Below are positions 56,355 to 63,370 of a stretch of DNA of 64,000 bases, piece after piece. A program made the position numbers and the translations under genes. The notes beneath the pieces are model-generated. The model was not told the origin of the DNA, made no database searches, and saw nothing but the letters and a program-made list of their open reading frames with translations. The DNA comes from a virus (lineage: Duplodnaviria > Heunggongvirae > Uroviricota > Caudoviricetes), in IMG/VR virus record IMGVR_UViG_2778260992_000001; one strand, 5' to 3'. Each line of letters begins with the position of its first letter. Positions within the stretch are counted from its first letter, which is position 1.

Positions 56355-59300
56355 ATGTGGTACAGGGAAGGTACTATCACATTTACACAGGGTAGCAATA
56401 CTCTGGTTGGGGCAGGGACAGCCTGGAACGTAACAGCTAATGGTGTGTTGCCTGGGATGATCGTCATTGGCCCCGACAACAAGCTGTATGAGATCAAGCG
56501 CGTAACCAGTGATACGAACATTGTTCTCTCAGAACCTTATACCGGCGAAACTCAGTCTGAAGTTCCGTGCCGAATCATTACGACCTATGAAGGCGACTTA
56601 ACACAGTTTAGCGCGCGCTTTACTGCACTAATGTCGCGTATGTCGGCTGATTCAAAGTCCATGCGCAGTTGGTTGACTGCTCTGGATGAGGTGACAATCG
56701 AGCGTGAAGACGGTACAGAAGTGACCGTTAAGCCGCTAATGCAGATCGTCAACGAGCACAACGAAAACGTTGAGTGGTATAAAAATAACACTGACGCGAT
56801 TGATGCTGCTGGCGACAAAGCTCGTGAGGCGGCGGCCAGTGCTGCCGCAGCAGCAGAAAGCGCCAATACCGCTGGAGAAAAAGCCTCTCAAGCGTCTCAA
56901 AGTGCATCCGCTGCGGCATCCTCACAAAGTGCTGCAAGTGCGAGCGCAACTGCTGCGAAAAAATCTGAAACGAACGCACAAGCCGCAAAAGAAGCGGCAG
57001 CAGAATCAGCATCTGTAGCGTCGGCCAAAGCATCGGAGGCAGCAACATCTGCGTCCAGTGCCTCTGCATCTAAGGATGCAGCCAAAGCATCAGAGACTAA
57101 CGCTTCATCGAGCGCAAACGCGGCAGCATCATCGGCAACAGAAGCTGCAAATTCGTCTAAGGCAGCAAAAACGTCAGAGGCAAACGCAAAAGCATCTGAA
57201 ACGGCAGCCGAACAGAGTGCATCGTCTGCAAACAGTTCGAAATCTGCGGCAGAAGCGTCAGCAAGCGCAGCCTCAGCAAGTGCGGATAGTGCTTCATCAA
57301 GTGCAACAGCGGCAGGAAAATCTGCGGATAGCGCATTGTCATCAGCGACAACAGCTACCACAAAAGCGACAGAGGCGACGAGTCAGGCTACAGCTGCTAA
57401 AAATTCAGCATCTGCAGCAAAAACCTCTGAAACAAATGCAAAGACTTCAGAAGACAATGCTGCTTCCTCTAAGGCGGCAGCTGCTGAATCTGCAAGTTCT
57501 GCGTCTGCATCAGCCTCCTCAGCATCCGCTTCAAAAGATGAGGCTACCAAGCAGGCATCAGAAGCGAAGGGCAGTGCTTCAACGGCATCCACGAAAGCAA
57601 CAGAGGCGGCAGGCAGTGCGACGGCTGCATCTCAGAGCAAAACTGCTGCTGAATCCGCTGCGACCCGTGCGGAAGCTGCTGCTGATCGTGCTGAAGAGAT
57701 TGCCGGTGCGGTTGCGATGGAAGACGCAAGCCTTACAACTAAAGGTGTTGTGAAACTTAGCAGTGCTGTCGATAGCACCAGTGAATCGCTGGCCGCAACG
57801 CCAAAAGCAGTTAAAGCAGCCAATGACAATGCGAATAGCAGGGTGCCATCTAACCGAAAAATTAACGGAAAAGCACTGACTGCGGATATAACATTAACGC
57901 CGAAAGATATTGGTACTTTAAATTCAGTAACGATGTCTTTCTCTGGCGGGGCTGGGTGGTTCAAACTGGCTACGGTTACCATGCCACAAGCGAGTTCCAT
58001 CGTTTACATCACATTGATTGGTGGTGCTGGATATAATGTTAACTCCCCTATGCAGGCTGGTATATCTGAACTTGTTCTTCGTGCGGGAAATGGAAATCCA
58101 AAAGGTCTTACTGGTGCGTTATGGCGAAGGACATCGGTTGGATTTACTAATTTTGCATGGGTGAATACATCCGGCGATACATATGATATTTATGTTGAGA
58201 TTGGCAATTATGCGACGAGTGTAAATGTCCACTGGGATTGTACTGCAAATGCGTCAGTTTCTATTTATACATCGCCAACATATTCAGCGAGTAAGCCTGC
58301 CAGCGTTACCGATGGTGTTGTTTATACGATGTATAGCTCACATCAGAAACCTACGCCATCAGATATTGGAGCACTGCCAACAACCGGAGGAACAGTTTCT
58401 GGTCCGTTGTCTGTTACAGGCGGATTAACTGGTTCATTGAATGGTAATGCAAGTACAGCAACGAAATTACAGACGACAAGAACTATCGGTGGAGTTGGTT
58501 TCGACGGTTCTGCCAATATTAATCTTCCAGGTGTAAACACTACGGGTAATCAGAACACCACTGGTAATGCCGCAACTGCTACAAAACTACAGACGGCAAG
58601 AACTATCGGCGGCGTGAGCTTTGATGGTACTGCAAATATTAATTTGCCAGGTGTTAATACGACTGGTAATCAGAATACAACAGGTAATGCGGCTACTGCT
58701 ACGAAGTTGCAGACTGCGCGTACTATTAATGGGGTGTCGTTTGACGGTTCGGCAAATATTTCCTTGTCACCAGCAAATATAGGTTGCCCGGCATCTCCTA
58801 CTGGTTGGTTAACTACAGGAAGTAATGGCGGAGCAATAACAACAGCCCAGTTAGTGACGTTATTGCAAAATAATGGAGCCTTTAACACAAAGGCATGGAT
58901 TGCTCGATGTGCGTGGGCCTATGCCAATAGCGCAACCATACCAAATAGTGAAACTGGTTGTGGCGTTATTCCATTGGCAGGAGCTGTTATAGAAGTATTT
59001 AATAACGGTAGTAGTTCAAATAATTATACGATCCGCATAACAACGGCCACAACGACAAGTGTTTCCGGTGCTCTCACTAATGCGGAGTTTATCTATGTAT
59101 TTAATGGCACAGATTATTCTCCAGGATGGCGAAGAGTATATAACACGAAAAACAAACCAACTGCATCTGACGTTGGTGCATTACCTCTTACCGGTGGTAC
59201 ATTATCTGGAGGTTTGACATCTTCTGGTGAGATCGTTTCAAAATATGCAAATGGTTTCCGCATTGCTTACGGTAGCTTTGGGTTCTTTATCCGTAATGAC

Positions 59301-60383
59301 GGCGGCAGCACATATTTCATGCTAACAGCATCAGGAGATACGTTAGGTTCATGGAACGGCTTGCGACCGATTACAATTAATAATACTAGCGGTGTTGTGT
59401 CTATTGGTAATGGACTAAATGTTACTGGTGGCGTAAATGGTAGTTTGAACGGTAATGCTTCAACAGCTACGAAGTTGCAAACAGCGAGAAACATCAATGG
59501 TGTTAAGTTTGATGGCTCAGGCGATATCAACATTAATACATTGGTATCTCGTGGCCGAGTTACGGCGTTAAGCGGCTCTACTCAAGGCACTGCTGGCATT
59601 CAAATGTACGAGGCGTACAACAATAGCTATCCGACCACGTATGGCAACGTATTGCACATGAAAGGTGCGAGTGCTGCTGGCGAGGGTGAGTTGCTTATTG
59701 GCTGGAGTGGTACGAGCGGTGCACATGCGCCGGTTTTCATTCGCTCCCGAAGAGATACCACTGATGCAGCATGGTCAGCGTGGGCACAGGTATATACCGC
59801 TAAGGATTCAATCCCTGGTGTGAATACAACCGGTAATCAGAACACTACTGGTAATGCTGCCACCGCCACAAAATTGCAGACAGCAAGGAAAATTGCTGGT
59901 GTGGCGTTTGATGGCTCTGCCGATATTACTTTGACTGCGGCTAACCTTAATGCCTATACGAAAACAGAGGTAACAAACCTTCTAAGTTCCTATGTGAAGA
60001 GCAGTTCTCTTCCAAGCATGACTGTGCGAACTTCCTCTGTTTCAGGTGGGGATATGGGCATGAGTTTGTCCGCATTCATTAGCCACCTTAAATCAAATGG
60101 GGCGTTTAGCAAAAGTTATTGGATTGGCTTTGGCGATGCTATGGGATTCAATGCTGGCAGTATCAACAATATAACGGGATTTGGTGCTGTAGAATTAGCA
60201 GAATCCATAATCGAAGTTTTTAATCTACCTAATGGTGATTATACAATTCGTTTAACGACGTCACACAAAGCTGACTACGGTGGGATTACAAACGCAATCC
60301 TCGTTTATCACTACCGCAGTAATAGAAACCCGGCAGGTCAATGGCTTAAATTTGCCGGTACTCTTGGGGCTACAAACAACTGA
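56355..60383 (+). CDS. side tail fibre protein
   Basis: Ala/Ser-rich SETNAK-type low-complexity region, conserved AATPKAVK fibre motif, repeated GNAATATKLQTARTIGGV modules. Confidence 0.85.
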   Translation: MWYREGTITFTQGSNTLVGAGTAWNVTANGVLPGMIVIGPDNKLYEIKRVTSDTNIVLSEPYTGETQSEVPCRIITTYEGDLTQFSARFTALMSRMSADSKSMRSWLTALDEVTIEREDGTEVTVKPLMQIVNEHNENVEWYKNNTDAIDAAGDKAREAAASAAAAAESANTAGEKASQASQSASAAASSQSAASASATAAKKSETNAQAAKEAAAESASVASAKASEAATSASSASASKDAAKASETNASSSANAAASSATEAANSSKAAKTSEANAKASETAAEQSASSANSSKSAAEASASAASASADSASSSATAAGKSADSALSSATTATTKATEATSQATAAKNSASAAKTSETNAKTSEDNAASSKAAAAESASSASASASSASASKDEATKQASEAKGSASTASTKATEAAGSATAASQSKTAAESAATRAEAAADRAEEIAGAVAMEDASLTTKGVVKLSSAVDSTSESLAATPKAVKAANDNANSRVPSNRKINGKALTADITLTPKDIGTLNSVTMSFSGGAGWFKLATVTMPQASSIVYITLIGGAGYNVNSPMQAGISELVLRAGNGNPKGLTGALWRRTSVGFTNFAWVNTSGDTYDIYVEIGNYATSVNVHWDCTANASVSIYTSPTYSASKPASVTDGVVYTMYSSHQKPTPSDIGALPTTGGTVSGPLSVTGGLTGSLNGNASTATKLQTTRTIGGVGFDGSANINLPGVNTTGNQNTTGNAATATKLQTARTIGGVSFDGTANINLPGVNTTGNQNTTGNAATATKLQTARTINGVSFDGSANISLSPANIGCPASPTGWLTTGSNGGAITTAQLVTLLQNNGAFNTKAWIARCAWAYANSATIPNSETGCGVIPLAGAVIEVFNNGSSSNNYTIRITTATTTSVSGALTNAEFIYVFNGTDYSPGWRRVYNTKNKPTASDVGALPLTGGTLSGGLTSSGEIVSKYANGFRIAYGSFGFFIRNDGGSTYFMLTASGDTLGSWNGLRPITINNTSGVVSIGNGLNVTGGVNGSLNGNASTATKLQTARNINGVKFDGSGDININTLVSRGRVTALSGSTQGTAGIQMYEAYNNSYPTTYGNVLHMKGASAAGEGELLIGWSGTSGAHAPVFIRSRRDTTDAAWSAWAQVYTAKDSIPGVNTTGNQNTTGNAATATKLQTARKIAGVAFDGSADITLTAANLNAYTKTEVTNLLSSYVKSSSLPSMTVRTSSVSGGDMGMSLSAFISHLKSNGAFSKSYWIGFGDAMGFNAGSINNITGFGAVELAESIIEVFNLPNGDYTIRLTTSHKADYGGITNAILVYHYRSNRNPAGQWLKFAGTLGATNN

Positions 60384-60501
60384 TTTAGGGATTATTTATA
60401 TGGCTGTGTGGTTTAAAAATGCGATTTCACAGCCGCAATCATAGGGATATATTAGTGAGTTACTAGATGCGAATATGAACAACCGTTAAACGGTATATGT
60501 A

Positions 60502-60524
60502 TAGGTAGGTAAGTATATACCTAC
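60502..60524. promoter_or_regulatory. palindromic site, class 2
   Basis: taggtaggtaagtatatacctac upstream of lysis cassette. Confidence 0.45.
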
Positions 60525-60586
60525 AATTAAAAGGAGAAGTGTGATATAAATCCGCCATCCCGATTTGACTTTTCACGGAGGAAAAC

Positions 60587-60910
60587 ATGTCGAACGAGAT
60601 GGCGGGCGTTACAACAGAGCAAGTTGAGCGTATTGCCGCGATCGTTGCTCGGGAGGTTGTTGGCAAATTAGGCAAAGAGCTACGTGAAGAAATTGGCCAG
60701 GAGGTCAATGATCAGCTGAAAACCTACTTTGGTGATATGACCCCGGCGCAACATAGTATTCAACACTCCAACCTGGACAAGCTCCTTAACCGGTTAGATT
60801 CCATCTCCAGTGGGTTCTTTGGCGGCATTGTTTCTAAAATAACGTCGTTCATTATTACTGCACTGCTTTTGGGGTTAGCCGCGTATGGCGTAAAAAATGG
60901 ACTGCAATAA
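60587..60910 (+). CDS. hypothetical membrane protein, possible holin
   Basis: 107 aa with one C-terminal hydrophobic helix; first gene of lysis cassette. Confidence 0.35.
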   Translation: MSNEMAGVTTEQVERIAAIVAREVVGKLGKELREEIGQEVNDQLKTYFGDMTPAQHSIQHSNLDKLLNRLDSISSGFFGGIVSKITSFIITALLLGLAAYGVKNGLQ

Positions 60911-60923
60911 CAGGAGATCAAGG

Positions 60924-61616
60924 ATGAAGACTCCGAGAGGCATTCGTAATAATAACCCCGGTAATCTTGATAAAGGATCACCGTGGCAAGGTCTGGTTGC
61001 GAATCCAGATGAACCGCGCTTTTGCACGTTTAAAGACCCTGTTTGGGGGATTCGTGCGTTGGCGGTGACTCTAATTACCTACCACGACAAACGTCGCGCA
61101 AAAGACGGCTCAAGTATCGATACCATTCGTGAAGTTATTGAACGTTGGGCACCGCCGAATGAAAACAACACTGACGCCTACATTAATGAGGTGTCTAAAG
61201 CCGTTGGTGTAACCGCAGACATGATCATCGATCTGCATGATTACGACATTCTTCGACCTTTGGTTGAGGCAATCATTCGCCATGAGAATGGGCGAGGTCC
61301 GCTAAAAACGCTGAACACCTGGTATGCGGCAGAAGTTATTGAGGAAGGTCTGCGTCGAGCTGGCGTCGTTAAGCCGGTGAAAACCGTGAAGGCTGTTCCT
61401 GTAACTAAAGAAACAGCAGGCGCAACTGTCACAGCAGGTATTGGTCTGGCGCAGCTGGCCGATGTTATGCCGCAGGTTTCCGCTGCTATGGATAAAGCAC
61501 AAGGTCATATCTCTAGCGGGGATACAGTACGCATCATCTTCGGTATTGCCACTATTGTTGTGGCTGGATTTATCGCCTGGTCGCAGGTAAGAAGACACCA
61601 GAAAGGGATGGTCTAA
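60924..61616 (+). CDS. putative endolysin (cell-wall hydrolase) with C-terminal membrane anchor
   Basis: position between holin-like gene and spanins; C-terminal hydrophobic segment; catalytic family not assigned. Confidence 0.4.
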   Translation: MKTPRGIRNNNPGNLDKGSPWQGLVANPDEPRFCTFKDPVWGIRALAVTLITYHDKRRAKDGSSIDTIREVIERWAPPNENNTDAYINEVSKAVGVTADMIIDLHDYDILRPLVEAIIRHENGRGPLKTLNTWYAAEVIEEGLRRAGVVKPVKTVKAVPVTKETAGATVTAGIGLAQLADVMPQVSAAMDKAQGHISSGDTVRIIFGIATIVVAGFIAWSQVRRHQKGMV

Positions 61617-61617
61617 T

Positions 61618-61869
61618 ATGCTAGGCAGCCTGATGACAAAGCTAAAAGTTGCTTTGATTACGCTGGCTGCCGTTCTTTTCGTTCTGGTCGGCGCTTACAC
61701 GATGGGCGGAAATGCGGCGCGACGAGCAATGGAAGAGAAGGCAAAACAGGAAGACAGGAAACGACTTCAAAGCACAGTGGACGTCAAAAATGAAACACTT
61801 GATGAGTTACGGAGCAAGGATGCTTCTACTGTTCATCATGAGTTGCACAATAAGTGGTTGCGTGATTAA
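61618..61869 (+). CDS. i-spanin (Rz-like)
   Basis: N-terminal TM helix then charged coiled-coil region; contains overlapping +1 frame lipoprotein gene. Confidence 0.6.
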   Translation: MLGSLMTKLKVALITLAAVLFVLVGAYTMGGNAARRAMEEKAKQEDRKRLQSTVDVKNETLDELRSKDASTVHHELHNKWLRD

Positions 61870-62020
61870 GCCTCAACCCGATGGGGTGCTTTTCTGCGAT
61901 GCGGCTACACCGCTATACATCAGCCGTGATGATCTCATGACCGAAGAGACTGAAAGAGAGGTGCTTTTTCACAATATGATTGGGGAGCGATTGTGTGGAT
62001 GGGGCAGAAAAGTGCCATAA
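61790..62020 (+). CDS. o-spanin (Rz1-like lipoprotein), overlapping Rz in +1 frame
   Basis: signal peptide with lipobox ISGC, Pro-rich mature start; begins inside Rz and extends beyond it. Confidence 0.55.
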   Translation: MKHLMSYGARMLLLFIMSCTISGCVIKPQPDGVLFCDAATPLYISRDDLMTEETEREVLFHNMIGERLCGWGRKVP

Positions 62021-62194
62021 CAAAAGTGGCGTTTTCTAACATAAAATTTGCATATTATTAGAGCACAAGGTAGATTTGATGCATGGATGTCAAGTAAATC
62101 ATACCTTGTTTTAATAAATCGACGCATACTCGTAGCCTCTAAACCGACAAGGTCGCCGCTATGACATAAAGTTATTACCGGCTAAGGTGGAAAC

Positions 62195-62593
62195 ATGCAT
62201 ACTGCACTTAACGCATCTCGTTCTATTCAGACGATAAGAGACTGTACCAAGATGATCGCATCGGTTCCGTTGCGGTATTGGGATGACTCGCTCCAAATTC
62301 GTGAAATGAACAAACCAGGTATGCTTAAGGATCAGCGTTTCATCGTTAACCTTAAAAGTGACGTTGAAGAAGGCAAGTTTACCATCAAATTGTTTGCAGA
62401 AATGATGGTGCTCAACAATCGGTTACGTTTCCTTGTTAAGCCAGAAAAACAGTTTCCCGATGTTGTGCGTTGTGAACCGGATGCTTTCTATGAGATTGAA
62501 AGCAAAATAGCTAAATTTATCAAAGATAAATACCGCGTAGATGTTAAAATAGCGAAACTGGATTCACCTACGGATATGCGGCTAGCGAACTAA
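62195..62593 (+). CDS. hypothetical protein
   Basis: 132-aa ORF, RBS aaggtgga. Confidence 0.45.
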   Translation: MHTALNASRSIQTIRDCTKMIASVPLRYWDDSLQIREMNKPGMLKDQRFIVNLKSDVEEGKFTIKLFAEMMVLNNRLRFLVKPEKQFPDVVRCEPDAFYEIESKIAKFIKDKYRVDVKIAKLDSPTDMRLAN

Positions 62594-63370
62594 ATGTCAC
62601 CATCATTCATAGCAGAGTATTCAAAAGTACTGTCTGATTTCCCTGAATGTGAAACAAGAGAAAAAATCAGAGTTGGCTACATGGTTAACTCTGATTTTTC
62701 TGTTTTACGACTCACAGAATGGTCCTTGACCGGTTCTAATTATGATTACTGTTTGACAGTGTCATTTGTAGGCGACCCTGATGCAGATTGGCTTCAAGAA
62801 CATGCAATGGATCTTGACGAGCAGGGGTATTCAGAAGCAGAGATAGTTCATAGTGTTCGTGAGTTAGTTGGTGATGAGCAAGAAGATGATGACGGCATTC
62901 AGATCGCCAGGTTCGTCTACAAACGATTCCAGTTTCGCTCACAAAAAGGCTCTCATCTTGGGGTCCAGATTAAAGGGGCATTTGTAACCCCTTCAAAGGA
63001 ACAAAAGGGACTTGCTAGAAGAGTTTACAATTTCCTTCTCAATTGGCATGACCATGTGGTATGTGATGACCATCAGACGGTTTACGGTGCCAGAATTTGG
63101 GCGGTCGGTATGCTTCTGGTCGGGCGTGTCCAAATCTATGACAATTTAAACAAAGAATTTATAGATGTCCTTGTTGAAGGTGGTATTGGGCAGAATGGCG
63201 TCAAACCGTGGGACGCGCTGCTATTGAGCAGCGAGGCCCAGTTACGTCACTGGAACCCTATGGCCGTCAGCATAGACCCATCTAGTCAGATTCTCGCCAT
63301 CATCTCCAAAGAAGACCGTCACATTGAAGTGGGCGTTACAACTTTTGACGCCAGGTCTACCAACCATTAA
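62594..63370 (+). CDS. hypothetical protein
   Basis: 258-aa ORF; terminator downstream. Confidence 0.5.
   Translation: MSPSFIAEYSKVLSDFPECETREKIRVGYMVNSDFSVLRLTEWSLTGSNYDYCLTVSFVGDPDADWLQEHAMDLDEQGYSEAEIVHSVRELVGDEQEDDDGIQIARFVYKRFQFRSQKGSHLGVQIKGAFVTPSKEQKGLARRVYNFLLNWHDHVVCDDHQTVYGARIWAVGMLLVGRVQIYDNLNKEFIDVLVEGGIGQNGVKPWDALLLSSEAQLRHWNPMAVSIDPSSQILAIISKEDRHIEVGVTTFDARSTNH

What the first reader, a model, noticed from the sequence alone, without database searches (positions are those of the whole stretch)
60587..62020. Lysis cassette with unassigned hydrolase carrying a C-terminal membrane segment and overlapping Rz/Rz1 spanins
The cassette order is single-TM small protein, 230-aa protein with a C-terminal hydrophobic helix, then i-spanin with an o-spanin lipoprotein starting inside it in the +1 frame and extending beyond its stop. 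The putative lysin could not be assigned to a catalytic family and its membrane anchor is unusual.
Basis: partly seen in the sequence, partly recalled or inferred. Interest (0 to 1): 0.45.

Follow-up and report, generated by a model that had tools for sequence, protein, structure and literature searches.

The report
Known phage lysis cassette, membrane-anchored endolysin
This is the four-gene host-lysis module of an SSU5-like phage-plasmid of E. coli; its "unassigned" enzyme belongs to an endolysin type with a C-terminal membrane anchor that has already been characterised and crystallised (Enc34 ORF39 / M4Lys), so the finding is real but ordinary.

Summary
All four ORFs exist as described and are under purifying selection. 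The window is an SSU5-like phage-plasmid: 96% nt identity to Escherichia phage PhiR41_1, and the cassette is in 238 of 5,426 complete E. coli genomes, always on plasmids.

The 230-aa protein is not unassignable. Residues 3-151 match the crystallised catalytic domain of Hafnia phage Enc34 endolysin ORF39 (PDB 7Q47, E=2.6e-54). The full length, including the C-terminal membrane domain, is about 55-57% identical to Enc34 ORF39 and to Salmonella phage BSPM4 M4Lys, and the proposed catalytic Glu/Tyr/Trp are invariant. Pfam-A and NCBIfam have no model for it, and RefSeq calls it "hypothetical protein".

Rz (83 aa) and Rz1 (76 aa, lipobox ISG|C, +1 frame, 80-nt overlap) form an ordinary overlapped two-component spanin, homologous to the Enc34/Chi-like pair. 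No other endolysin was found in the window or in the SSU5 annotation up to 100 kb.

The weakest assignment is the 107-aa "holin" (phrog_5093, function unknown). It has one C-terminal TM helix, two invariant His residues and no similarity to any characterised holin. Distant homologues head lysis cassettes that carry unrelated endolysins, usually next to another small membrane protein.

Verdict: already known, low interest.

The parts
60587..60910 (+). 107-aa protein in the holin position (phrog_5093, function unknown). It has a charged helical N-terminal part, the conserved motif YFGDMTPAQHSIQH with invariant G49/H56/H60, one C-terminal TM helix (about residues 77-102) and a 5-residue tail.
   Evidence: (KD 2.02); codon-position substitutions 7/0/41 against SSU5
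60924..61616 (+). Endolysin of the Enc34 ORF39 / M4Lys type, 230 aa.
   Evidence: PDB 7Q47 E=2.6e-54; phrog_873 endolysin E=4.9e-88; 54.7% identity over 99% of its length to the BSPM4 endolysin; alignment A1
60924..61376 (+). Catalytic (PHA02564-type) domain, residues 1-151. W75 is at 61146-61148, Y86 at 61179-61181 and the putative catalytic E121 at 61284-61286.
   Evidence: Aligned to 7Q47 residues 6-168. W75/Y86/E121 are invariant in 7 homologues and correspond to Enc34 Trp79/Tyr95/Glu131.
61356..61412 (+). Basic Lys/Val/Pro-rich linker, residues 145-163 (net charge +4); its first residues overlap the end of the catalytic-domain alignment.
61413..61490 (+). Weakly hydrophobic Gly/Ala/Thr-rich helix 1 of the membrane domain, residues 164-189.
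   Evidence: KD 1.11; 54% G/A/S/T; conserved G174, Q177, L178
61491..61529 (+). Conserved acidic loop, residues 190-202, with invariant S198-G199.
61530..61613 (+). Strongly hydrophobic terminal TM helix (residues 203-221) and basic tail VRRHQKGMV.
   Evidence: KD 2.07; tail charge +3. The equivalent last 13 residues are needed for lysis by M4Lys.
61618..61869 (+). i-spanin (Rz-like), 83 aa, with an N-terminal TM helix (about residues 8-29) and a short periplasmic domain of about 54 aa ending KWLRD.
   Evidence: phrog_1026 Rz-like spanin E=2e-23; KD 2.38; alignment with Enc34 ORF40 and others
61790..62020 (+). o-spanin (Rz1-like) lipoprotein precursor, 76 aa. The lipobox ISGC has Cys24 at 61859-61861. 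It is in the +1 frame relative to Rz, overlaps it by 80 nt and extends 151 nt beyond the Rz stop.
   Evidence: phrog_1275 Rz-like spanin E=1.6e-22; alignment with SSU5, Enc34 ORF41 and BSPM4 shows invariant M1 K2, SGC, FC and GERLC.W

Best explanation
This is the late lysis module of an SSU5-like phage-plasmid, made of four genes.

1. The 230-aa protein is an Enc34/M4Lys-type endolysin. Its all-helical N-terminal domain is distantly related to the GH73/GH23 lysozyme alpha-lobe and cuts the glycan strands of peptidoglycan; N-acetylglucosaminidase activity was reported for M4Lys. It is joined through a basic linker to a C-terminal membrane domain made of a weakly hydrophobic helix, an acidic loop, a strong TM helix and a basic tail.
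2. Inferred from the conserved charge pattern (positive-inside rule): the membrane domain inserts as an N-in/C-in hairpin. The enzyme therefore waits on the cytoplasmic face of the inner membrane until the membrane is breached.
3. By homology with M4Lys, the breach depends on the enzyme's own C-terminal membrane domain.
4. The upstream 107-aa tail-anchored protein most likely times or assists this step, as a holin or holin component. That role is inferred only from its position and its genomic context.
5. [quoted passage not shown] This step is by homology and by the general spanin model.

Shown here: the genes, their conservation, the homology, the conserved catalytic residues, the membrane segments, the lipobox and the overlap. 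Inferred: the topology, the order of events and the role of the 107-aa protein.
For: Lysin:
- 7Q47 match at E=2.6e-54 over residues 3-151.
- phrog_873 'endolysin' at E=4.9e-88.
- Full-length tblastn match (54.7% identity) to the BSPM4 endolysin gene, whose product the M4Lys paper studied, and to other Chi-like phages; 182 phage records cover at least 80% of the query.
- W75, Y86 and E121 are invariant and equal Enc34 Trp79, Tyr95 and Glu131.
- Published work: the Enc34 catalytic domain is muralytic and the full-length protein is toxic. M4Lys alone lyses E. coli, needs its TMD and last 13 residues, is azide-insensitive, and removes GlcNAc from muropeptides.

Topology:
- Linker charge is +2 to +4, loop -1 to -3, and tail +2 to +3 in 6 of 7 homologues.
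- The same N-in/C-in prediction was made for phage Siskin.

Spanins: phrog_1026 and phrog_1275, the alignments, and lipobox and frame. Overlapped is the commonest spanin architecture, 228 of 528.

Context:
- The cassette sits directly after the tail-fibre gene, as in SSU5 and Cyrano.
- SSU5 has no other annotated endolysin, and tblastn with four other lysin types found none in the window.

107-aa family: distant homologues are the first gene of cassettes with a Peptidase_M15_3 endolysin (L013) or an SLT-like endolysin plus spanins (L014, L015).
Against: - No experiment exists for the SSU5-type proteins themselves.
- The topology is contested. The M4Lys authors' predictors put the N-terminal domain in the periplasm. 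Helix 1 is below the usual TM threshold (KD 1.11).
- How a cytoplasmic, membrane-tethered enzyme reaches the wall is unknown.
- The 107-aa protein has no similarity to any characterised holin and lacks the charged C-terminal tail typical of holins.
- The holin-position protein of Chi-like phages, on which the M4Lys experiments were done, is a different and non-homologous protein with an N-terminal TM helix. Results with ORF_37 therefore do not transfer.
Confidence: 0.85

Rival explanations
1. The 107-aa protein is not the hole-former. The lysin's own C-terminal membrane domain makes the lethal membrane lesion. The phrog_5093 protein is then a partner or regulator: either the single-TM component of a two-part holin, analogous to SPP1 gp24.1 / PBSX XhlA, or an antiholin-like timer. 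In SSU5-like elements the usual multi-TM partner would have been replaced by the membrane domain fused to the endolysin.
For: - M4Lys lyses E. coli alone and needs its TMD.
- In the three non-SSU5 context types the phrog_5093 homologue sits next to another small membrane protein: 2 TM in L012, at least 1 TM in L013 on the far side of the endolysin, and about 3 hydrophobic segments in L014/L015.
- These gene orders mirror SPP1 24.1-25-26 and PBSX xhlA-xhlB-xlyA, where a protein with a C-terminal TM helix and a 2-TM holin act only together.
- Invariant His56/His60 and Gly49 lie outside the TM helix, which suggests a specific interaction or sensing role.
Against: - There is no sequence similarity to gp24.1/XhlA: hhalign probability is about 1% and only the TM helices align, and there is no Pfam XhlA hit.
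- Only four context types were examined.
- Holin independence of M4Lys was seen only under strong overexpression.
- The neighbouring small membrane proteins have no family assignment.
Confidence: 0.4
2. SAR-like model. The catalytic domain is exported and held inactive on the periplasmic face by the C-terminal anchor (N-out/C-in). It is released or activated when a pinholin-like protein depolarises the membrane.
For: - Phobius and Phyre2 predicted N-out/C-in for M4Lys, and its basic C-terminal tail fits C-in.
- The Enc34 authors discuss a SAR-like tether-and-release model.
- Helix 1 is Gly/Ala/Thr-rich like SAR segments (the comparison with SAR composition is from my own knowledge).
Against: - There is no N-terminal signal or SAR segment. 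The first 150 residues are a soluble globular domain, with maximum KD 1.08 inside the fold.
- No known pathway exports a large N-terminal domain using a C-terminal signal.
- The linker before helix 1 carries +2 to +4 charge in all 7 homologues, which argues for a cytoplasmic location.
- M4Lys lysis is not blocked by azide.
Confidence: 0.12
3. The 230-aa protein is a virion-associated wall-degrading enzyme used at DNA entry, as PHA02564 is labelled 'virion protein', rather than the endolysin.
For: The same domain occurs inside large virion proteins: phrog_7182 tail injection transglycosylase and phrog_2276 tape measure, PDB 9vvp Gp29 of 1295 aa, and K1F-like gp16 internal virion proteins.
Against: - Here it is a small stand-alone protein with a membrane anchor, placed between the holin-position gene and the spanins.
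- It is orthologous over its full length to the tested endolysin M4Lys.
- No other endolysin is present in SSU5.
Confidence: 0.04

Closest known systems
Hafnia phage Enc34 endolysin ORF39 (PDB 7Q47; Cernooka et al. 2022, PMC8943055)
   Same: - About 57% identity over the full length.
- Same N-terminal PHA02564 catalytic domain, with the Glu/Tyr/Trp triad conserved.
- Same C-terminal domain of two helices, an acidic loop and a basic tail.
- Same place in a cassette that is followed by homologous overlapped spanins.
   Different: - The window protein lacks two short insertions in the catalytic domain (Enc34 PKKNG and SPEDYD) and has a longer basic linker.
- The upstream holin-position gene is unrelated: an N-terminal TM helix in Enc34 and a C-terminal TM helix here.
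- The host element is a 110-kb phage-plasmid, not a 60-kb Chi-like virulent siphovirus.
Salmonella phage BSPM4 M4Lys (Bai et al. 2020, PMC7143992)
   Same: - 54.7% identity over 99% of the length.
- Same architecture; the C-terminal TM helix plus basic tail that M4Lys needs for lysis is conserved.
   Different: The activities were measured on M4Lys, not on this protein: N-acetylglucosaminidase, possibly an endopeptidase side activity, and lysis independent of holin and unaffected by azide. The partner protein ORF_37 used in those experiments has no homologue here.
Salmonella phage SSU5 and Escherichia phage Cyrano lysis cassettes (public records NC_018843, OV696614)
   Same: The same four genes in the same order. 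The lysin is 94% (SSU5) to about 99% (Cyrano) identical, and it is 100% identical to the one in CP054387.1. They are already annotated as holin/endolysin/Rz/Rz1.
   Different: - Nucleotide similarity to Cyrano and SSU5 stops about 20 nt before the Rz1 stop. The Rz1 C-terminus and the accessory genes downstream therefore differ.
- SSU5 has extra genes (adhesin, Cor) between the tail fibre and the cassette.
Overlapped two-component spanins (P2 LysB/LysC type architecture; Kongari et al. 2018, PMC6139136)
   Same: An i-spanin with an N-terminal TM helix, an o-spanin lipoprotein starting inside it in the +1 frame and ending beyond it, and position as the last genes of the cassette.
   Different: The i-spanin is very short (83 aa, about 54 periplasmic residues) and has no Cys. 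The mature o-spanin is comparatively long (52 aa) and has two conserved internal Cys. It belongs to the Enc34/Chi spanin family rather than to the lambda or P2 families.
SPP1 gp24.1 / PBSX XhlA, the single-C-terminal-TM component of a two-part holin (PMC6316719)
   Same: This is the closest architectural analogue of the 107-aa protein. It is about 90-107 aa, with a charged helical N-terminal part, one C-terminal TM helix and a very short tail. It is the first gene of the cassette and sits next to the endolysin, usually with a second multi-TM protein nearby.
   Different: There is no detectable homology (hhalign probability about 1%; no Pfam XhlA hit). The hosts are Gram-positive. The SSU5-type cassette has no separate 2-TM partner.
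SAR endolysins (P1 Lyz, phage 21 R21)
   Same: A membrane-tethered endolysin with a weakly hydrophobic Gly/Ala-rich helix. Overexpression lyses cells without a holin.
   Different: The SAR segment is N-terminal and Sec-dependent. Here the membrane domain is C-terminal, the N-terminus is hydrophilic, and lysis by the homologue M4Lys is azide-insensitive.

Membership tests
Enc34 ORF39 / M4Lys-type endolysin (PHA02564 catalytic domain + C-terminal TMD) | Sequence homology of the N-terminal domain to the crystallised Enc34 catalytic domain | tested here: met
   phmmer against PDB: 7q47_A, E=2.6e-54, query 3-151 aligned to chain 6-168; phrog_873, E=4.9e-88
Enc34 ORF39 / M4Lys-type endolysin (PHA02564 catalytic domain + C-terminal TMD) | Proposed catalytic Glu (Enc34 Glu131) and the substrate-positioning Tyr95 and Trp79 are conserved | tested here: met
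   E121, Y86 and W75 are invariant in all 7 aligned homologues. They map to the Enc34 residues with a constant offset of one.
Enc34 ORF39 / M4Lys-type endolysin (PHA02564 catalytic domain + C-terminal TMD) | C-terminal membrane domain: a weak helix, a loop, a strong TM helix and a basic tail | tested here: met
   KD 1.11 and 2.07; conserved G174/Q177/L178/S198/G199 and tail charge +3
Enc34 ORF39 / M4Lys-type endolysin (PHA02564 catalytic domain + C-terminal TMD) | Located in a lysis cassette immediately upstream of the spanin genes | tested here: met
Enc34 ORF39 / M4Lys-type endolysin (PHA02564 catalytic domain + C-terminal TMD) | All-helical fold resembling the lysozyme alpha-lobe | not tested
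   No structure prediction was run. The fold is inferred from about 57% identity to the solved chain.
Enc34 ORF39 / M4Lys-type endolysin (PHA02564 catalytic domain + C-terminal TMD) | Muralytic activity of the catalytic domain, and TMD-dependent lysis from within | not testable with these tools
   Known only for Enc34 ORF39 and M4Lys
Two-component spanin, overlapped architecture | i-spanin: N-terminal TM helix followed by a periplasmic domain | tested here: met
   KD 2.38 at residues 11-29; phrog_1026, E=2e-23
Two-component spanin, overlapped architecture | o-spanin: lipoprotein signal with a lipobox Cys and no Asp at +2 (outer-membrane sorting) | tested here: met
   MKHLMSYGARMLLLFIMSCTISG|CV. 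I read the fit to the PROSITE lipoprotein pattern from the sequence; LipoP/SignalP was not available. phrog_1275, E=1.6e-22.
Two-component spanin, overlapped architecture | The o-spanin gene starts inside the i-spanin gene in another frame and ends beyond its stop | tested here: met
   Start 61790 lies within 61618-61869, in the +1 frame, and the gene ends at 62020
Two-component spanin, overlapped architecture | Outer-membrane disruption at the last step of lysis | not testable with these tools
   Function is inferred from the family
Holin (for the 107-aa protein) | Small membrane protein with at least one TM helix, encoded next to the endolysin | tested here: met
Holin (for the 107-aa protein) | Homology to a characterised holin family | tested here: not met
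   - No Pfam or NCBIfam family above threshold.
- PHROGs gives only phrog_5093 'unknown function'.
- No PADLOC hit.
- No similarity to SPP1 gp24.1.
- Unrelated to the Chi-type holin-position protein.
Holin (for the 107-aa protein) | Hydrophilic, highly charged C-terminal tail after the last TM helix | tested here: not met
   The tail is only KNGLQ, with net charge +1
Holin (for the 107-aa protein) | Timed, energy-poison-triggerable lethal permeabilisation of the inner membrane | not testable with these tools
   No experiment exists for any phrog_5093 member in the literature searched
SAR endolysin | N-terminal weakly hydrophobic signal-anchor-release segment | tested here: not met
   The N-terminus MKTPRGIRNNNPGN is hydrophilic. 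There is no segment with KD above 1.1 in residues 1-150, and that region aligns to a soluble crystal structure.

The most novel reading that the evidence does not exclude
The 107-aa protein represents an uncharacterised family of lysis proteins in phages of Gram-negative bacteria (phrog_5093). The whole-library search gave 62 hits at E <= 0.001, each representing a 50%-identity cluster. Members are tail-anchored, carry an invariant G...H-x3-H motif just before the single C-terminal TM helix, and lead lysis cassettes built around at least three unrelated endolysin types.

The family may be a non-homologous counterpart of the XhlA/gp24.1 component of two-part holins. In SSU5-like elements its membrane partner would be the TMD fused to the endolysin. 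This would also offer a way into the open question of how C-terminally anchored endolysins reach the cell wall.
Probability: 0.3. Interest if true: 0.5.

Novelty: already known. Interest (0 to 1): 0.2.

Why it matters
There are three practical consequences.

1. Annotation. In RefSeq these genes are "hypothetical protein" or "membrane protein", and the o-spanin is not among the features listed, in 238 complete E. coli genomes and several hundred enterobacterial plasmids. Neither Pfam-A nor NCBIfam has a model for the catalytic domain. A name can be transferred with confidence.

2. Spread of the endolysin type. The Enc34 paper stated that the C-terminally anchored type appears limited to Chi-like phages and some relatives. 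It is also the standard lysin of the widespread SSU5-like phage-plasmids. At least one of these, PhiR41_1, is recorded with E. coli K-12 MG1655 as host, so it may be a tractable system for studying how the enzyme reaches the wall, which is still unknown.

3. The partner protein. The only component without a known relative is the 107-aa protein, a small side lead rather than a discovery.

Tried and rejected
- Pfam, NCBIfam and PADLOC scans of the cassette proteins found nothing above threshold.
- The promoter and terminator scan of 60200-62700 gave one promoter-like site against 4.8 expected and 3 terminator-like sites against 2.1 expected, so it carries no signal.
- Short inverted repeats in the two flanking intergenic regions (7-10 nt arms) were judged unremarkable.
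- The search for related loci with the 21-sequence family alignment failed because no stretch was conserved enough. It was repeated with sub-alignments. The genome-contig scan gave only one locus.
- A dual-start (antiholin) reading of MSNEM in the 107-aa protein was rejected, because Met5 is not conserved outside the closest relatives.
- An internal start producing a TMD-only peptide (Met190 of the lysin) was rejected, because that Met is not conserved in Kokobel1, SNUABM08 or BUCT551.
- Homology of phrog_5093 to SPP1 gp24.1 was tested and rejected.
- The two ORFs downstream (62195-63370) have no PADLOC hit and only unknown-function PHROGs.
- Structure prediction and fold search were not run. 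They were judged redundant given about 57% identity to a solved structure, and they cannot show membrane topology.
This is a limited test.
- SSU5 positions 100001-103299 and the part of this element outside the 64-kb window were not inspected.
Full report

- The 107-aa protein (60587-60910) has a single hydrophobic segment near its C-terminus (Kyte-Doolittle 19-residue mean 2.02) and a good Shine-Dalgarno sequence.
- The 230-aa protein (60924-61616; AGGAG upstream) has a strongly hydrophobic helix at residues 204-222 (KD 2.07). A weaker Gly/Ala/Thr-rich helix precedes it at 164-182 (KD 1.11).
- The 83-aa protein (61618-61869) has an N-terminal TM helix (KD 2.38).
- The 76-aa protein (61790-62020) begins MKHLMSYGARMLLLFIMSCTISG|CV. 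This is a lipoprotein signal with a lipobox Cys (codon 61859-61861) and Val at +2, which fits outer-membrane sorting.
- Rz1 starts 172 nt into Rz, so it is in the +1 frame. It overlaps Rz by 80 nt and continues 151 nt past the Rz stop.

These are real genes under purifying selection. Against SSU5, substitutions fall mainly on third codon positions: 7/0/41 for the 107-aa gene, 12/7/107 for the lysin, and 5/2/37 for the lysin's C-terminal 80 codons.

**Origin of the window.**
- The region is 96% identical to Escherichia phage PhiR41_1, 93% to phage Cyrano and 81.5% to Salmonella phage SSU5.
- It matches 669 PLSDB plasmids from Klebsiella, Escherichia, Enterobacter, Salmonella and others, almost all typed non-mobilizable.
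- It is in 238 of 5,426 complete E. coli genomes, always on plasmids of about 110 kb.
- The window is therefore part of an SSU5-like phage-plasmid.
- The cassette directly follows the 1342-aa tail-fibre gene. Two unknown genes and then parA follow it.

**The "unassigned hydrolase".**
- Pfam-A and NCBIfam have no model for it. RefSeq plasmids call it "hypothetical protein".
- Residues 3-151 nevertheless match PDB 7Q47 at E=2.6e-54. This is the catalytic domain of the Hafnia phage Enc34 endolysin ORF39.
- PHROGs places the protein in phrog_873 "endolysin" at E=4.9e-88.
- tblastn finds full-length matches that include the membrane domain in Chi-like phages. BSPM4, whose endolysin gene encodes the M4Lys studied by Bai et al., gives 54.7% identity over 99% of the query. 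An identical protein is encoded in CP054387.1.
- In a seven-sequence alignment, W75, Y86 and E121 are invariant. They correspond, with a constant offset of one, to Enc34 Trp79, Tyr95 and the proposed catalytic Glu131.

**What the literature shows for this type.**
- The Enc34 domain lyses outer-membrane-permeabilised E. coli, P. aeruginosa and H. alvei. [quoted passage not shown] The full-length protein is toxic.
- M4Lys alone lyses E. coli, needs its TMD and its last 13 residues, and is not blocked by azide. Its catalytic domain removes GlcNAc from muropeptides.
- The architecture was first flagged for phage Siskin, with a predicted N-in/C-in topology.
- The catalytic family can therefore be assigned, and the unusual anchor is a published feature.

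**Is there another endolysin?**
- SSU5 has only SSU5_027 annotated as an endolysin up to 100 kb. Cyrano annotates the orthologue as "Endolysin".
- A limited tblastn of the window with T4 E, lambda R, an M15 peptidase and two SLT-like lysins found nothing. The Enc34-type domain occurs only once in the window.

**Membrane domain and likely mechanism.**
- The segment pattern is conserved across SSU5-like and Chi-like proteins. It consists of a basic linker (+2 to +4), helix 1 (weakly hydrophobic, 40-54% G/A/S/T), an acidic loop with invariant Ser-Gly (-1 to -3), a strong TM helix, and a basic tail (+2 to +3 in 6 of 7).
- By the positive-inside rule this favours a hairpin with both ends in the cytoplasm. 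The catalytic domain would be tethered on the cytoplasmic face. This is an inference.
- The M4Lys authors' predictors gave the opposite orientation. The Enc34 authors state that the route to the periplasm is unknown.
- I therefore commit to this model: a membrane-tethered cytoplasmic enzyme gains access to the wall through a lesion that needs its own TMD, with timing set or assisted by the upstream protein. I rank a SAR-like periplasmic-tether model well below it.

**Spanins.**
- Rz and Rz1 hit phrog_1026 and phrog_1275 ("Rz-like spanin", E about 1e-23).
- They align with Enc34 ORF40/ORF41 and their counterparts in other Chi-like phages. The o-spanin keeps M-K, SGC, FC and GERLC-W. The i-spanin keeps only the TM helix, a Gly and the C-terminal W-x-R.
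- Overlapped is the commonest spanin architecture, 228 of 528.
- The i-spanin is short (about 54 periplasmic residues) and has no Cys. The mature o-spanin is 52 aa with two conserved internal Cys.

**The 107-aa "holin".**
- This is the least secure assignment. It belongs to phrog_5093 ("unknown function"). It has no Pfam, NCBIfam or PADLOC match above threshold.
- It is unrelated to the holin-position protein of Chi-like phages, which has an N-terminal TM helix.
- Word-indexed search finds only SSU5-like relatives, all "hypothetical".
- A profile search of 1.84 billion representatives finds 62 proteins at E <= 0.001. The sampled members are about 100-140 aa and share the architecture. Across the 21 aligned, G49, H56 and H60 are invariant in the motif YFGDMTPxQHxIQHxRLDKLL...NFWG, which lies just before the single C-terminal TM helix.
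- All ten distant members tested fall in phrog_5093.
- Among 83 fetched loci (82 from IMG/VR and one genome contig, L014), 77 are SSU5-type, with the gene immediately followed by the Enc34-type lysin.
- The divergent loci are informative:
  - L013: tail fibre genes, then the homologue, then a Peptidase_M15_3 endolysin, then a 72-aa membrane protein.
  - L014 and L015: the homologue, then a ~100-aa protein with about three hydrophobic segments, then an SLT-like endolysin (phrog_669 hit on the L014 copy), then overlapped spanins.
  - L012: the homologue, then a 2-TM 102-aa protein.
  - Sources for these loci.
- The family therefore leads lysis cassettes built around three unrelated endolysins, which supports a lysis role. 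It is usually accompanied by another small membrane protein.
- This recalls the two-part holins of SPP1 (gp24.1, endolysin, gp26) and PBSX (XhlA, XhlB, XlyA). There, a protein with a C-terminal TM helix and a 2-TM holin act only together.
- The resemblance is architectural only. hhalign gives about 1% probability of homology.

**Comparison and verdict.**
- The cassette is the SSU5-type lysis module, already annotated as holin/endolysin/Rz/Rz1 in phages Cyrano and SSU5.
- Its lysin is a member of a type characterised biochemically in 2020 and structurally in 2022.
The claim that the lysin is unassignable is resolved by homology, and the holin label remains unproven.
- Novelty: already known. 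Interest is low.
- The value lies in correcting the annotation of several hundred plasmids, in showing that this endolysin type is standard in SSU5-like phage-plasmids, and in a modest lead on phrog_5093 as an uncharacterised lysis-associated family.

Noticed in passing
window 62002-63370: Nucleotide similarity to Cyrano and SSU5 stops at about 62002, some 20 nt before the Rz1 stop. The Rz1 C-terminus therefore differs: GWGRKVP here, GW* in Cyrano, QWSGKKADESA in SSU5. The stretch between the cassette and parA is a variable slot. Here it holds two unknown genes (62195-62593, phrog_2594; 62594-63370, phrog_3307; no PADLOC hit). Cyrano has a KacT toxin/antitoxin pair there, and SSU5 has two other hypothetical genes.
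   Followed up: partly
window 60587-62020; L010 (NZ_CP062814.1): RefSeq/PGAP names the cassette genes "hypothetical protein" or "membrane protein" in all listed E. coli plasmids, and the overlapping o-spanin gene is not among the annotated features. Cyrano annotates only a 39-aa "Rz1" fragment that starts after the lipobox. PhiR41_1 likewise has a 52-aa fragment.
   Followed up: partly
L003 (BSPM4, NC_048655.1) 2109-2492: RefSeq annotates a minus-strand "tail protein" (gp39, locus 2211-2492) where the plus strand encodes a clear i-spanin homologue (MTGLLARIKTGVLAALVFVV...RRKWMRRKD). This is probably a mis-annotation. RefSeq also labels the Chi-type holin-position proteins (BSPM4 gp37, Enc34 ORF38, Kokobel1 gp10) "Rz-like spanin".
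   Followed up: partly
window 56355-60383: The tail-fibre protein (1342 aa) has a long Ala/Ser-rich low-complexity region and several near-identical copies of a ...GVNTTGNQNTTGNAATATKLQTAR... motif. Cyrano annotates its counterpart as a homologue of the P1 S tail-fibre protein. Unlike SSU5, no adhesin or Cor genes lie between it and the lysis cassette.
   Followed up: no
window 60587-60910; alignment A6: The phrog_5093 family has two invariant histidines (H56, H60; H-x3-H) and an invariant glycine (G49) in the soluble part just before the TM helix. That is unexpected for a simple membrane-lesion protein and hints at a binding or sensing function.
   Followed up: partly
L015 2143-5366 (IMGVR_UViG_3300033475_001782, contig of 109 kb); L014: A GC-rich 109-kb viral contig carries a phrog_5093 homologue, then a ~100-aa multi-TM protein, an SLT-like endolysin and overlapped spanins. 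Immediately upstream is a 431-aa protein with Cys-rich motifs that look like a radical-SAM/SPASM enzyme; that identification is by eye only and was not scanned. The contig size suggests another phage-plasmid-like lineage.
   Followed up: no
window 60924-61376: The same catalytic domain is embedded in large virion proteins: K1F-like gp16 internal virion proteins, tape-measure proteins, the "tail injection transglycosylase" family, and PDB 9vvp Gp29 (1295 aa, E=5.5e-22). One domain therefore serves both at entry and at exit in different phages.
   Followed up: no
window 60402-60524: There are small hairpins in the 200-nt gap between the tail-fibre gene and the cassette (GGCTGTG/CACAGCC at 60402-60434; GTAGGTA/TACCTAC at 60505-60524) and one sigma-70-like site at 60426-60453. 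None exceeds chance expectation.
   Followed up: partly
L008 36898-37596 (SSU5_101): SSU5 annotates a "lysozyme inhibitor LprI family protein" elsewhere in the genome. I did not check whether this window has a counterpart.
   Followed up: no
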